Below, piece after piece: positions 18,501 through 24,500 of a stretch of 64,000 nt of DNA; within the stretch, counting starts at the first letter, position 1, and every line of letters starts with the position of its first letter. The stretch is from positions 4,652,001 to 4,716,000 of the forward strand of contig NC_087252.1 in the NCBI RefSeq assembly GCF_037042905.1, written 5' to 3'. The DNA comes from Lytechinus pictus. Taxonomy: Eukaryota. The notes beneath the pieces are model-generated. The model ran no database searches, had not been told where the DNA came from, and worked only from the letters and a program-made list of their open reading frames with translations. Position numbers and translations under genes: made by a program.

Positions 18501-21500
18501 CGTAGTTTGCTTTCACACCGCCAAAATACCTGGTATTCTCTGATCGGGGTAAATTTCCCGATCAGAGAATACCTGGAACTGGCGAACTTCGAGGCGGTCT
18601 GAAACCACCTAATGAAGGCTGGGGATTGAAGGATGTGTGTCTGGGTGAGGTTCAATGGCAAAGGGGTATAGAAGGATAGAGGGGTAACAATGTAGCGCCC
18701 AGGGGGGAGAGAGGGGGTGGTAGTAATAGTAGGGTGCAGAATGGGAGAAGGAAGGGGTGCAAAAGCACCTAAAATCTGGGTTAAGGAAGGTCAGACAAGG
18801 GAAGATAAGGGCTAGAGATTGAAGGATGTTTCTTGGGGTTGAGGTTCACAGGTGAAATCTAAAGGGGTAAGAGCATCGCCCCAATGGGGGTATGCTATTA
18901 ACAGCAGAGTGTGGATTAGGGTAAGGAAGGAGTGCAGATACAGCTGAAATAGGGTTGAAAAAATCTTTCACATCATCATGGTTGCGTAAGTCCTCCTCTT
19001 CTTCTTCGTAATCAGGACATCATCACCATCATCATCATCATCATCTACATCATCCCCACAATCATCCCCACCATCTTTACTCTTGGTACCTTCTTTCTAA
19101 TCATTAGCTTACATAGTGCCATCAACATATAATCATCTTCAAAATTCGAATCACTTCATTTCACCATTCCTGTCTACATCATCACCACGACAACCACCAA
19201 ATTCGTGATACCATTAATCATCAATATCACAGCACACTGGTCAATGGGTTAGAAGTATCCACAAATCAGTTCCCACCATATCAAATTGAACAAATTTTTT
19301 ATAACATCAGAGGAGATCCTTAATTTGGAATGGATCACTGCTCTGCAAATTGGCAATAATGGTTGACTTCTTACCCATTTCCATAACTTGAAAAACATAA
19401 GTTGATAACATGACAATGATGGATAATGACAAATCAAGTTTTAATGAAAAGTTACCAATTATCATTATTAAACAGTTACCATTTTTTTGTATTACATTGC
19501 CAATTTAAGGATTGTGATTTTAACTTTCAATTAAAAAGTTTTTATTCAAGAACGGCAGAACACACTGCACTAGACACAATTTAATTTTTCTTTTGTGCAT
19601 TTTTCTCTTTAGATCCATATATCAAGTGTGACTGCTAGCATTAAGGACAACAGAAACTGCAAAAGAGCCTCCTGAAGGAAAAACGGTACTTCCAAACCCC
19701 AACGATCATTCTCCAACTAACCTTCAATTTTAGACTTGATGATCGTTTGATAAAATTCTTCTTCTTCTTGTGATGTTCGGATTCCAGACTGGTTGGTGAG
19801 GGTTTCTGTAAAAGGGATGGAATACACATGTCTCTCTGCCTCAGATGCATCCCCTCACCCTCTGCCATGCACCCATTTATTATAGCTTATCACATCAAGC
19901 ATACAGTAGCTTATATTATCCTCTCACTGCCCCCACAATAAGCCTGTTCACGGTTGTAAACTGTGCACGAGCAGAAAAATGTCATTGGAGACAACCATGA
20001 AGGTGGCTTTCAAATTCACTGACATAGATTGGATGATTATTCATGTATTCCTTTCAAAATATTTATCACATCCAAGCTGAAGAGTAATAAATAGAGCCTT
20101 CATAATCACTGGTATTTGACAGTAGCCTAAACAATAGTCAAATGTGCCAAAGCCAGACAAAAACAGATTTCCAAACTTTATCCCTGATGTACTATTCTAG
20201 TCACCTGGTCTATACAATGCCTTTTGTTCTTAGAATTTGAATACTCTACCGGTAACGCAACATCTACATTTGAAAATGATAGTGCTTATCCTAATGAAAA
20301 ATCACAAAGGTCATTTGAGAAAAGTTGATCATGAGCTAACCGTGAACTGGCTTATTGGTAGCTTATCACACCAAAATCATAAGAGCTAATAACTATTCCC
20401 TCATCGGACATCCAAATAAATGCTGAATTGTAACACCTCTTTGCATTTATACATAAGTTCTTAAGTATTCCCTCAGTCACTTTAATACTCATTCACTCTT
20501 TCATTCACTCTTAGTTCATAGGCATACATTGATTCTGAATTCACTTTTTGGATCATGACCTTTTTCATCACTCACTCACTCACTCACTCACTCACTTATT
20601 CATTCATTCATTCAACCATTCATTCATCATTCATTCATTCAACCATTCATTGATATCACATTCCAAAGCCAACCCATATATAAGTCCAATACTGCACTGT
20701 ATCCCCATAGCTTAATAAATGGATGGTCCAGGCTGGAGATATTTATATCTAAATAAATAGAGTAAAATTCACAGAGCAAAATGCTGAAAATTTCTTCAAA
20801 ATCGGATAACAAATAATGAAGTTATTGAATTTTAAACTTTATCAATATTTTGTGAAAACAGTTACATGCACATCGCCATGAATATTCATTAGGTGGGCTG
20901 ATGTCACATTCCCACTTTCCTTTTTCTTATATTAAAGAAATCATAAATATTTCATTTTTTCATATATGTGTAAATGATGTGTCTCCATTATGATGAAATA
21001 AGTTGCGGCAATAAATAACTAATACACTTAATCAGTTGTCAATCCAATTGTTTTAGTTCTTGGTAGAAAAATTTTGAATAAGCCCAATTTCATATAATGA
21101 AATACAAAAGAACAAGTGGGGATATGACATCATCAGCCCAACTAATGAATATTCATAAAGACCTGCCTAGAACTGTTTCACCGGAATAATGCAAATACTT
21201 AAAATTCAATAACTTCGTTATTTGTTATACGATTTTGATGAAATTTTCAGCATTTTGCTTTGTGAATTTTACTCTTTTTTTAGATATAAATTTTTCCCTT
21301 TAAGACATTCCTACCATGGCAGATCATGTCCCACCCATGCTCTATATAGGAACTTAAATATGATTGAAGTTTCTCCATGTATAATCAATGACAAAAGTAA
21401 CATGCCAATTAACCAAATTATACCACCTATTAACGGCAGAATATATAATTTGTGTTGGATGAATATAAATAAAATTTATTATTGATAACAAGCAACATAA

Positions 21501-24500
21501 GTTTTGATTTTTTGTGATGAAAATGCAAAAGATATTGTATCTGTGTTCAAAAGTATTGAAGTTGATGAAAAAAGAAATTAAGAGAAACACTAAACTCCTT
21601 GTCATCTATTTCCTCATGATTTTAACCCCCATCTCCCCTTCATAATTATCAGTATTATCACCGTCATCATCATCATCATCACCATCACCATCATCATTGT
21701 AAATATTATCAGAAAAGGCAGCCACAAAAAAATAAATTTTCACAAAACATTTCCCAATACTGTAGAACAACACAATCTTCACAATACTAATATTACAACT
21801 AGAAGGAAACAAGAACATTTTCACAATGCAAACATATCAAAATTAAATAACATTCCGCTTTCAAATTTGGAAGAAAATAAAAGGGCAAATAAAACAATTC
21901 CAAATAATAGAAAGCTGTAAAAGAAACTATTCAAAATGATGAGATAGTTAAAAAAAAATACAAATCCATTGAGAACACCGATACCATGGTAATAGAAAAT
22001 CAAAATAATTTCAGAAAATATTGACCAAGATATGAAGAGTACCCATGCAGAGTTGCAGAGCAAAATCAAGGTACTTGATGAAAAGTAACATGATTTAATA
22101 AAATCCATAGTGACTAACAAATATACATCAAAGAAGACAGACTCGCAATGGACAAAACAGACAAAATAATCAACCATTTTCTTTTTCTTATAACAGATTT
22201 GCAAAGCAATGCTACTGTGAAGAGCAGAGAGATCCTAAACTGGTAGTGAGTGACATAAGACCTATTCAACACAAAACATATCACAAGAACTATTCACTGA
22301 TATTACTCTTGAAAAGTGAATGAACCACAATATAACATCAAACATTTCAGAACAAAAAGAAACGAGAGAAATGGTGCTTCCATAATCAGCATAATGAGAT
22401 AAACATTACAAGTCAAACTATAGATGAGTTCACTTTGACAAAATAGACAGAACATGGACAATATGACACGGTAAACCAAAAGCTGATGAATTCAAGTAGA
22501 TATTTATGTCGATGAGTGGGAAATAACAAGAGTGACCATCCAAATACTCAAATAAATATAAAAAACAGAGAGAATGTGTTGATTTCATGTTTTCGACATG
22601 GCAACTGAATTCCTCTGAAAACTGATAGTACAAGTAGTGCATAACCATGTGGCAAATACCACAAACAAGTAACTACAGATACATATAAATGAGCAAGGAC
22701 CTCTCAAAATAAGCCTGAGAAACAAAATTTATACTTGAATTGAACTGAAAAATTGAGTTGATTTAGAGTGCACAGAAATGACGACAAGCAAACGGACATC
22801 ATCATAAAAGAAAAAACGACTAACATACAAGTTGATGTACAAACAAATGATCCTCGCGATGTCAATCAATATCCAAACAGGTTATGATACACAAATATCA
22901 AGGAATATGAACAGCTATTTGGGGGGTTTGGAGGTGTAGGTTTGTTTGGAGTTTTTTATAACACAGTAGCTGCAAACAAGTGCCATGAGGTACTACTTCA
23001 TGGAATGACATCCATGTAATCCAATATCAATTGAGGTTAAAAGATTTAGGTATGACGCCTATTAAAATGCTCCCCTGGGAGTAGAGAATATGGTGTGCAG
23101 TAGGACCAACCTTAAAGGGCAAGTCCGCCCCAACAAAAAGTTGATTTGAATAAAAAGAAAGTTATGACATAAAGTTTCTCTTAATTTAACAAAAGAGTTG
23201 CACATCCTGGCTGGTATGCTAATGAGGAGATGATGATATAATCCACTCACTATTTCTTTTGTATTTTATTATATGAAATATTCTAATTTTCTCCTCATTG
23301 TCAAGTGATACAACGATTAATTCCTCCCTGAACATGTGGAATTAACAATGTTTAATACTATATGGTTCAGTTAACTTGGTCCTTATTGTCAAAAAATCTA
23401 TTAAAAAATGAAATATTGTATAATTCAAACAATAAAAACCAACAAAAATAGTATGTGATGGACATCATCGACTGACTCACCTAGTTGTGCATGTCACTGT
23501 TTTGTGAAAAATAAGCGAAACTTTAAATTGTCAGAACTTTCTTATTTTACATCCGATTTTGATGAAATTGTCAGCACTATGCTAGTTTGATTTTTCTCTA
23601 TTTATTCAAGTCAGCATTTTCCTGGGGTGGACTTGACCTTTAACTGTCAGTTTTATGTTTGATATCAAGAATACAATGGTTGCAGGATGACATTGAACAA
23701 GGAAGAATGCATCTAGTCAACATGGTCAACCTTAGACCTGGTCAATCTCTCCTCAAAATCAGATAATGACCAACATCCATCAGGAACAAAGATCCAAGAC
23801 TGGCTGATTTTGTTTGCAATGAACAGATTGGACAATTTACTATGAAAAAATTAAATGATAACATAAAACAAGAATGGAATGTATTCAGTAGTGAGACAAA
23901 CCTCAGACTTGAGACTGACCAATTTTTATCACTTTAAAAGGACAAAATAACAGAAAGCAAATGATAACAGAACAAGAATGGCATGGATTCAGCAATGGAA
24001 AAAAACTAAGATTTGAGACTGGCCAAACTTGATCACTTAAAGAAGACAAATGAACAAAAATCAAATACTAACATAAAACAAATGGCATGCATTCAAAGTC
24101 AGGCGAACCTCAGACCCGACACTGGCCGACCTCGATGAAACAGACAGATGAACAGAAAGCAAATAACATAGAACTAAAATGGCATATACTATTCAGTAGC
24201 AGGATAAACCTTAGACTTGAGACTGGCAGATCTCGATCACATAAAAAGGGACAAACTAACAGAAAGCAAATGATAACATAAACAAGAATAGCAGGCATTC
24301 AGCAACAAGACGAACCTCAGAGCTGAAACTGGCCCATCTCGATGAAAAGGACAAACGAACAGAAAGCAAATGATAACAAAGAACAAGAGTGGCATGCTTT
24401 CAGCAGCGGGACGAACCTTAGACTTGAGACTGGCCGATCGTTTGATGATGTTCCTCTTCTGTTTGGGCTGTTTGCTTACCTCCCTATGGTCGTCACCCTG

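What the first reader, a model, noticed from the sequence alone, without database searches (positions are those of the whole stretch)
19722..24480. The KRSxSLK motif is encoded twice: alternative-donor extension versus a separate cassette exon
Seen: the 24.4 kb exon has two phase-0 donors. The 63-nt extension encodes VSKQPKQKRNIIKRSASLKSK, and a separate 84-nt exon 4.6 kb downstream encodes KPSPTSLESEHHKKKKNFIKRSSSLKLK. Both end AAG|GTT. Known: vertebrate PDZ-RhoGEF has an RSESLK motif upstream of RSRSDVDMD. Inference: an exon-end duplication created an unusual either/or choice between donor extension and cassette. This could give isoforms with zero, one or two basic, phosphorylatable RSxS motifs just upstream of the DH domain.
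Basis: partly seen in the sequence, partly recalled or inferred. Interest (0 to 1): 0.7.

Follow-up and report, generated by a model that had tools for sequence, protein, structure and literature searches.

The report
Sea urchin RhoGEF duplicated motif exon
A sea urchin Rho-activator gene encodes a short basic motif twice, likely because the end of one exon was copied, and annotated transcripts carry zero, one or two copies rather than one or the other, which would tune a predicted phosphorylation switch; this is a real but ordinary kind of exon duplication.

Summary
The window holds a Lytechinus ARHGEF11/12-like RhoGEF. Exon 24619-24480 has a second in-frame donor 63 nt on (24417), and an 84-nt exon (19805-19722) repeats its end (35/48 nt; next best in the window 27/48). 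RNA reads confirm junction 24417>16481 (4 reads, one run).

The 'either/or' reading fails. Of 20 annotated urchin isoforms (L. variegatus, L. pictus, S. purpuratus), 15 carry both segments, 3 the extension only, 2 neither and 0 the cassette only. No route to mutual exclusion exists: both lengths are multiples of 3, both introns are GT-AG, and 4.6 kb separate them.

All 41 models from Diadema, sea stars, a crinoid and Owenia carry one motif. So the doubling is echinacean-urchin-specific in this sample, and the extension is probably the ancestral exon end. Both segments are conserved to Strongylocentrotus (21/21 and 22/28 aa).

New here: a six-copy 104-nt array repeats the exon end plus donor down the intron, and the same exon encodes an F-actin-binding-type motif.

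Likely function: a 0/1/2 dose of a polybasic, kinase-site-like linker motif (untested). Known class, already in RefSeq; interest modest.

The parts
24480..24619 (-). Core linker exon (140 nt) of the ARHGEF11/12-like gene; encodes VSNMVDQFE, an F-actin-binding-type short motif; ends at donor 1 (GAG|GTAAGC)
   Evidence: RNA depth over it in runs X21-X23
24417..24479 (-). 63-nt segment between donor 1 and donor 2 (AAG|GTTCGT); VSKQPKQKRNIIKRSASLKSK, net charge +8; probably the ancestral exon end
   Evidence: 4 reads of X22 cover it and join exon 16481
23811..24440 (-). Tandem array of six ~104-nt units (63-83% pairwise identity), each the last ~23 nt of the exon plus donor plus ~80 nt of intron. 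AG|GTT donor-like copies at 24316, 24210, 24109 and 23902 would all shift the frame or add a stop
   Evidence: only self-matches in G000; no RNA depth over 24090-24397 in 4 runs with low coverage
19722..19805 (-). 84-nt cassette exon, a copy of the exon end; KPSPTSLESEHHKKKKNFIKRSSSLKLK, net charge +7
   Evidence: present in 15 of 20 annotated urchin isoforms; not covered by the read lay
16429..16481 (-). Common downstream exon (GEEKKEGRRINENKRSR)
   Evidence: the loose end of 4 X22 reads matches + strand 16451-16480 at 29/30 letters
27542..27568 (-). Context: 27-nt alternative microexon directly upstream of the core exon
   Evidence: skipped in the consensus loose end of 11 X22 reads
361..59685 (-). 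Context: exons of the ARHGEF11/12-like RH-RhoGEF that lie in the window (RGS-like, C1, linker, start of DH)
   Evidence: tblastn of P0015 and P0002 on the window; Pfam domains of P0002

Best explanation
This ARHGEF11/12-like gene encodes a basic R-S-x-S-L-K motif twice and its annotated transcripts carry zero, one or two copies in a nested way, likely because the 3' end of the linker exon was duplicated in an echinacean urchin ancestor, and the copy number would set the dose of a predicted polybasic phosphorylation switch in the linker before the DH domain. Shown: both segments, their homology and one junction by reads (24417>16481). Shown by annotation only: the other forms, 24480>16481 (zero motifs) and 24417>19805>16481 (two motifs). 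Inferred: the extension is the original exon end, because every outgroup has one motif directly before the GEEK segment. The cassette is then the newer copy, and donor 1 an internal donor that removes the motif. Inferred function: each copy adds about +7 to +8 charge and one hydrophobic-x-R-x-x-S-L site 48 or 76 residues after an F-actin-binding-type motif. That would strengthen binding to acidic surfaces (F-actin, membrane, or the acidic autoinhibitory stretch of the same linker) until a basophilic kinase phosphorylates it.
For: Homology 35/48 nt against a background best of 27/48. Isoform tally: L. variegatus 9 both, 1 extension only, 1 none of 11; L. pictus 3 of 3 both; S. purpuratus 3, 2 and 1 of 6; cassette-only 0 of 20. 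Outgroups: exactly one motif in 41 of 41 models (Diadema 2, Acanthaster 10, Asterias 2, Patiria 12, Anneissia 10, Owenia 5). Conservation from L. pictus to S. purpuratus: extension 21/21, cassette 22/28 with the last 12 residues identical, against 34/46 for the constitutive part of the same exon. Polarity hints: the outgroup motif is slightly closer to the extension in 4 of 6 named outgroups (8 vs 6 identities in Diadema, 9 vs 8 in three sea stars), and the spacing from the actin motif is 36-45 in outgroups, 43 for the extension and 50 for cassette-only. Reads: 4 X22 reads join 24417 to exon 16481. In human PDZ-RhoGEF this linker holds the F-actin site 561-585 (PMC10724141, passages) and an autoinhibitory element that likely works electrostatically (PMC2695464, passages).
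Against: Read support is thin: 23 reads laid in all, from about 6 in 100 of three runs, and no read was laid on the cassette. Counts of gene models are not abundances; in X22 all 4 reads across donor 2 skipped the cassette although most models include it. Polarity is weak: the crinoid and Owenia motifs tie between extension and cassette (6 vs 6 and 5 vs 5 identities), and outgroup intron positions were not seen. Diadema has only 2 partial models, so an unannotated cassette there is not excluded. Homology of the cassette's 5' part to the core exon was significant in 2 of 5 pairings only. No paper was found that ties this motif to phosphorylation or binding. In PMC2695464 constructs starting at residue 672 or 691 kept autoinhibition, so a motif further upstream need not be what inhibits.
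Confidence: 0.7

Rival explanations
1. Either/or (mutually exclusive) choice between the donor extension and the cassette, swapping one motif variant for the other.
For: The two segments are homologous and end in the same phase, as mutually exclusive duplicated exons do. In X22 the 4 reads that used the extension all skipped the cassette.
Against: 15 of 20 annotated isoforms hold both segments and none holds the cassette alone. Both lengths are multiples of 3, so no frameshift penalises co-inclusion. Both introns are GT-AG and the segments are 4.6 kb apart.
Confidence: 0.05
2. Reverse polarity: the cassette is the ancestral, separate motif exon, and the extension is a later copy placed right behind donor 1.
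For: Donor 1 fits the consensus better than donor 2 (8 vs 6 of 11 positions against a recalled U1-complement consensus). The 104-nt array shows that this exon end duplicates locally. The cassette shares the F of the sea star 'SFL'.
Against: The extension is never skipped alone while the cassette is. The extension keeps RSASLK as in sea stars and matches the outgroup spacing better. An unnamed single-frame protein, P0072, has the actin-type motif and the extension contiguous and then runs into intron-like sequence.
Confidence: 0.2
3. Two independent, loosely regulated events (a minor internal donor and a minor cassette) in a disordered linker that tolerates length change. The missing cassette-only form is just the product of two low rates, and copy number has little effect.
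For: The linker holds other alternative pieces: a 27-nt microexon, a short SIEPG exon and tandem acceptors. The human linker is random coil by CD (PMC2695464). In X22 the cassette was skipped in 4 of 4 reads.
Against: The motif-bearing ends of both segments are invariant between Toxopneustidae and Strongylocentrotidae, while the flanking exon part is 74% identical. The same three isoform classes are annotated in both L. variegatus and S. purpuratus.
Confidence: 0.3
4. The duplicated element works mainly as a nuclear localisation or microtubule/membrane targeting stretch (KQKR, KKKK), not as a phospho-switch.
For: Both segments carry lysine clusters, with net charge +8 and +7.
Against: What is conserved out to the crinoid and Owenia is hydrophobic-x-R-[ST]-x-S-L, not the lysine cluster.
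Confidence: 0.2

Closest known systems
Tandem exon duplication with alternative splicing (PMC8373072, passages; PMC9013439, abstract)
   Same: Adjacent homologous coding segments in one gene, same donor phase, alternatively spliced, conserved across related taxa.
   Different: Only the exon's 3' ~50-60 nt is clearly copied. The parent copy is itself optional through an internal donor. The outcome is additive (0/1/2), not the substitution that PMC8373072 studies.
Mutually exclusive duplicated exons (Dscam1 type, as described in PMC8373072)
   Same: Homologous exon pair in the same phase.
   Different: Co-inclusion is the commonest annotated form, and no frameshift, steric or splice-class barrier exists.
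RH-RhoGEFs PDZ-RhoGEF/ARHGEF11 and LARG/ARHGEF12; their RGSL-DH linker
   Same: RGS-like, DH and PH domains; an L/IIxxFE-type F-actin motif in the linker (PMC3404065, PMC10724141, passages); acidic clusters just before DH.
   Different: The urchin protein has a C1 domain and two motif copies. The known Esrp-dependent vertebrate Arhgef11 exons are 75-129 nt events listed for human, mouse and zebrafish; no urchin gene named with 'gef' appeared in the held urchin Esrp list (PMC5703972 supplements).
Exon-intron junction duplication (human FGG, PMC9052919, abstract)
   Same: The 104-nt array likewise duplicates a donor site with its flanks.
   Different: The FGG duplication is a single 403-bp pathogenic copy that causes aberrant splicing. 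Here six old, diverged copies are fixed, and no use of them was seen in low-coverage reads.

Membership tests
Tandem exon duplication | Neighbouring coding segments of one gene homologous beyond chance | tested here: met
   35/48 nt vs next best 27/48 in the window; no annotated exon lies between them
Tandem exon duplication | Whole exon copied, acceptor to donor | tested here: inconclusive
   Only the 3' ~50-60 nt align clearly; the 5' part matched the core exon beyond shuffles in 2 of 5 pairings
Tandem exon duplication | Single copy in outgroups | tested here: met
   One motif in 41 of 41 outgroup protein models; outgroup genomes not seen
Mutually exclusive exons | The two segments never occur in one transcript | tested here: not met
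   15 of 20 annotated urchin isoforms hold both
Mutually exclusive exons | Each alternative is used alone | tested here: not met
   Cassette-only 0 of 20 models
Mutually exclusive exons | A barrier to co-inclusion (frameshift, very short intron, mixed spliceosome classes) | tested here: not met
   63 and 84 nt, GT-AG introns, 4.6 kb apart; an RNA-structure barrier was not tested
RH-RhoGEF (ARHGEF11/12-like) | RGS-like domain plus DH-PH tandem | tested here: met
   P0002 carries PF09128, PF00621 and PF17838; the S. purpuratus orthologue P0033 hits the PDZ-RhoGEF RGS-like structure 1htj at E 3e-24; window exons match P0015
Short linear F-actin-binding motif (SFM, PMC13364712) | Val P1, Leu-like P4, Phe P8, Glu P9 | tested here: met
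   VSNMVDQFE in the core exon (Met at P4); same pattern in all 10 proteins scanned
Short linear F-actin-binding motif (SFM, PMC13364712) | Binds actin filaments | not testable with these tools
   Needs co-sedimentation or imaging
Basophilic kinase site (CAMK/PKC-type; consensus recalled) | Arg at -3, hydrophobic at -5 and +1 | tested here: met
   IIKRSASL and FIKRSSSL; the pattern holds in all outgroups
Basophilic kinase site (CAMK/PKC-type; consensus recalled) | Serine is phosphorylated in vivo | not testable with these tools
   No phosphoproteome tool; literature searches gave nothing
14-3-3 mode I site RSxpSxP (consensus recalled) | Pro at +2 | tested here: not met
   Both copies have Lys at +2; the RSxS core is present

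The most novel reading that the evidence does not exclude
A coupled splicing 'counter'. The cassette can be included only when the weak downstream donor is chosen, the array of decoy donors helps enforce that choice, and the resulting 0, 1 or 2 phospho-motifs (28 residues apart, suitable for a dimeric binder such as 14-3-3) switch the RhoGEF between no, monovalent and bivalent control next to its actin-binding motif, in a tissue- or stage-specific way.
Probability: 0.15. Interest if true: 0.6.

Novelty: new member of a known kind. Interest (0 to 1): 0.32.

Why it matters
It is a clean, roughly datable example of a partial exon duplication that turned a single ancient linker motif into a splicing-controlled 0/1/2 dose. 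It also points to a motif (hydrophobic-x-R-[ST]-x-S-L) that is kept from Owenia to echinoderms in ARHGEF11/12 orthologues, for which my searches found no functional study. The three natural isoforms give a ready test of what that motif does in a model embryo. The isoforms are already in RefSeq and the class of event is well known, so the surprise is small.

Tried and rejected
Either/or splicing: rejected on the isoform tally.

Direct junction counts for all four junctions: not obtained. Reads were laid only on 24090-24720, which shows loose ends at the donors but not the cassette. Use of donor 1 is only inferred there: X21 depth in bin 24464-24485 equals 14 letters, which fits 2 reads ending at 24479, below the tool's listing threshold. 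The contig run X1 laid nothing. No RNA holder was on record in the run search, which is no evidence either way.

More echinoid taxa: three protein searches and a profile search of 1.84 billion representatives added only P0072 (unnamed) and one spurious repeat protein, P0073. A metagenome scan found no locus. A PDB search with the region's profile found 0.

The array as source of the cassette: rejected. The cassette's homology reaches further upstream than the array unit, and its downstream intron does not match the unit.

The array as hidden microexons or extra donors: all four donor-like copies shift the frame or add a stop, and no depth was seen over 24090-24397 (low coverage).

Esrp regulation: no 'gef'-named gene in the urchin sheet of PMC5703972 as held (the held file may be cut, and unnamed genes would be missed).

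Rbfox-type TGCATG at 19871 and 24091: noted, but the window has 0.58 per kb, so it is not evidence.

A date for the Lytechinus-Strongylocentrotus split: not found in the passages read; PMC7455304 is not held.

Earlier findings of the scan near this place: none.
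Full report
Observation. On the minus strand the exon runs from 24619 (TTGCAG|CTC) to donor 1 after 24480 (GAG|GTAAGC). The same frame stays open for 63 nt more to donor 2 after 24417 (AAG|GTTCGT). An 84-nt segment at 19805-19722 has a normal acceptor and the donor AAG|GTTAGT, and the next exon starts at 16481. The last 48 nt of extension and cassette agree at 35 positions, and the next best ungapped match anywhere on either strand of the window is 27. Of the last 13 codons, 5 are identical, 4 differ synonymously and 4 change the residue.

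The gene. Protein searches with two window exons hit Lytechinus variegatus 'Rho GEF 12-like' (P0002; RGS-like, C1, DH and PH domains) and orthologues from Strongylocentrotus, Diadema, sea stars, a crinoid and Owenia. The window's exons match the L. pictus model P0015 at 100% over most exon bodies, so this is a Lytechinus ARHGEF11/12-like RH-RhoGEF. The two serines are 28 residues apart. The first lies 48 residues after the Phe of an F-actin-binding-type motif in the same exon, and the second lies 112 residues before the DH start. 'Just upstream of DH' is therefore loose.

Are both segments used? Cluster look-up gave the annotated isoform sets. Of 11 L. variegatus models, 9 have both segments, 1 the extension only and 1 neither. 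All 3 L. pictus models have both. Of 6 current S. purpuratus models, 3 have both, 2 the extension only and 1 neither. None of these 20 has the cassette alone. Three older S. purpuratus models (2 both, 1 extension only) and 3 partial models were tallied apart and also show no cassette-only form; P0005 and two short Logan fragments do not reach the region. The L. variegatus series X1-X11 is complete, and no member has the length a cassette-only form would have. These are gene models, not abundances; that such models rest on RNA-seq junctions is recalled. Raw RNA reads were laid on 24090-24720: 4, 17 and 2 reads from runs X21, X22 and X23 (about 6 in 100 of each run read), and nothing from the contig run X1. 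Four X22 reads run through the extension and leave at 24416, with loose letters matching + strand 16451-16480 at 29 of 30 positions. Junction 24417>16481 is thus real, and in that run all four reads across donor 2 skip the cassette. In X21 the depth of bin 24464-24485 equals 14 letters, which fits two reads stopping at 24479, as use of donor 1 joined to a G-starting exon would give. That is an inference from one probable read pair. The cassette itself was not covered by the lay.

So the choice is nested, not either/or: zero, one (extension) or two motifs. Nothing forbids co-inclusion: 63 and 84 are multiples of three, the introns are GT-AG, and the segments are 4.6 kb apart. Whether the missing cassette-only form reflects true coupling or two low rates multiplied cannot be told from these data.

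Origin. Between the actin-type motif and the DVD-D landmark, 41 of 41 outgroup models carry exactly one hydrophobic-x-R-[ST]-x-S-L motif (Diadema 2, Acanthaster 10, Asterias 2, Patiria 12, Anneissia 10, Owenia 5). In the echinoderms it is followed at once by the GEEK-like segment. Lytechinus and Strongylocentrotus are Echinacea of different families, and Diadema lies outside Echinacea. PMC8940180 (passages) places the origins of Aulodonta, Carinacea and Echinacea in the Triassic; that Diadema belongs to Aulodonta is recalled. The doubling thus falls after that split and before the Lytechinus-Strongylocentrotus split, with the caveat that Diadema has only two partial models and no outgroup genome was seen. 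The extension is the likelier original. It keeps RSASLK as sea stars do, it is slightly closer to Diadema (8 vs 6 of 14) and to three sea stars (9 vs 8), and it has the outgroup spacing (43 against 36-45; cassette-only would be 50). The crinoid and Owenia tie. The unnamed protein P0072 shows actin-type motif and extension in one open frame. A possible match of the cassette's 5' part to the core exon beat shuffles in 2 of 5 pairings (28 and 2 of 1000) and not in 3: inconclusive. Selection looks real: from L. pictus to S. purpuratus the extension is 21/21 identical and the cassette 22/28 with its last 12 residues unchanged, against 34/46 for the constitutive part of the exon.

The array. Tandem Repeats Finder reports a 104-nt period, 5.7 copies, at 23853-24439. 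The six units are 63-83% alike. Each consists of the last ~23 nt of the exon, the donor and ~80 nt of T-rich intron; copy 3 still reads RSASLKSK but follows a stop. The donor-like sites at 24316, 24210, 24109 and 23902 would all shift the frame or bring a stop. A search of the own genome found only the array itself (a lower bound), and no read depth lay over 24090-24397. It is a separate duplication from the cassette, since the cassette's homology reaches further upstream and its intron flank differs. A role in donor choice is possible (compare the FGG junction duplication, PMC9052919, abstract) but untested.

Likely function. Each segment adds +8 or +7 net charge and one site of the basophilic-kinase type (consensus recalled). 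Neither has the +2 Pro of a mode I 14-3-3 site (recalled). In human PDZ-RhoGEF the equivalent linker is random coil and autoinhibitory, likely by electrostatics, through acidic clusters just before DH (PMC2695464, passages). It also holds the F-actin site 561-585 needed for cortical recruitment (PMC10724141, passages; PMC3404065, passages). I therefore favour a polybasic, phosphorylation-reversible tether whose dose is set by splicing. This step is inference, about 40% on its own. Searches for the motif's function found nothing: one search gave 0 papers, none of 25 listed of 107 papers held S635 together with ARHGEF11, and one search listed reviews and unrelated studies (listings only). The vertebrate RSESLK sequence is recalled and came from no call. 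No 'gef'-named gene is in the urchin Esrp-dependent list as held (PMC5703972, passages and supplement searches; the held file may be cut).

Comparison and verdict. It works like a tandem exon duplication with alternative splicing (PMC8373072, passages; PMC9013439, abstract). It is partial and additive, and it fails the tests for mutually exclusive exons. The isoforms are already in RefSeq. I found no paper describing this event in searches (listings only).

Noticed in passing
window 24619-24480 (-); proteins P0036, P0007, P0046, P0009, P0010, P0011: The V-x-x-[LM]-x-x-x-F-E actin-filament motif sits at the same place of the linker in urchins, sea stars, a crinoid and the annelid Owenia. PMC13364712 (section 11) dates the ARHGEF11 motif to Euteleostomi and argues for late, independent origin. 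These orthologues suggest it may be much older; binding and homology to the vertebrate motif were not tested.
   Followed up: partly
window 24440-23811 (-): Six-copy 104-nt array repeating the exon end and donor 2, with four AG|GTT decoy donors that would all be non-productive; only self-matches in G000.
   Followed up: partly
window 27568-27542 (-): 27-nt alternative microexon directly upstream of the actin-type motif; absent from 1 of 11 L. variegatus and 2 of 3 L. pictus models, present in 6 of 6 S. purpuratus models, and skipped in the consensus of 11 X22 reads.
   Followed up: partly
window about 10403-10369 and 2235-2229 (-): A further short alternative exon (SIEPGSHTKSI) and apparent tandem acceptors before DVDMD; sea star and crinoid models vary at the same spot. 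The linker is a splicing hotspot.
   Followed up: no
P0004 C-terminus vs window 24416-24380 (-): A partial S. purpuratus model reads past the motif into sequence resembling the translation of the Lytechinus intron start, hinting that the first ~40 intron bases after donor 2 are conserved between families. No DNA of that species was seen.
   Followed up: no
window 20746-21288, 23486-23606, 16179-16359, 24973-25137: Inverted-repeat elements (MITE-like) in several copies, some in opposite orientation on either side of the exons or inside the long intron.
   Followed up: no
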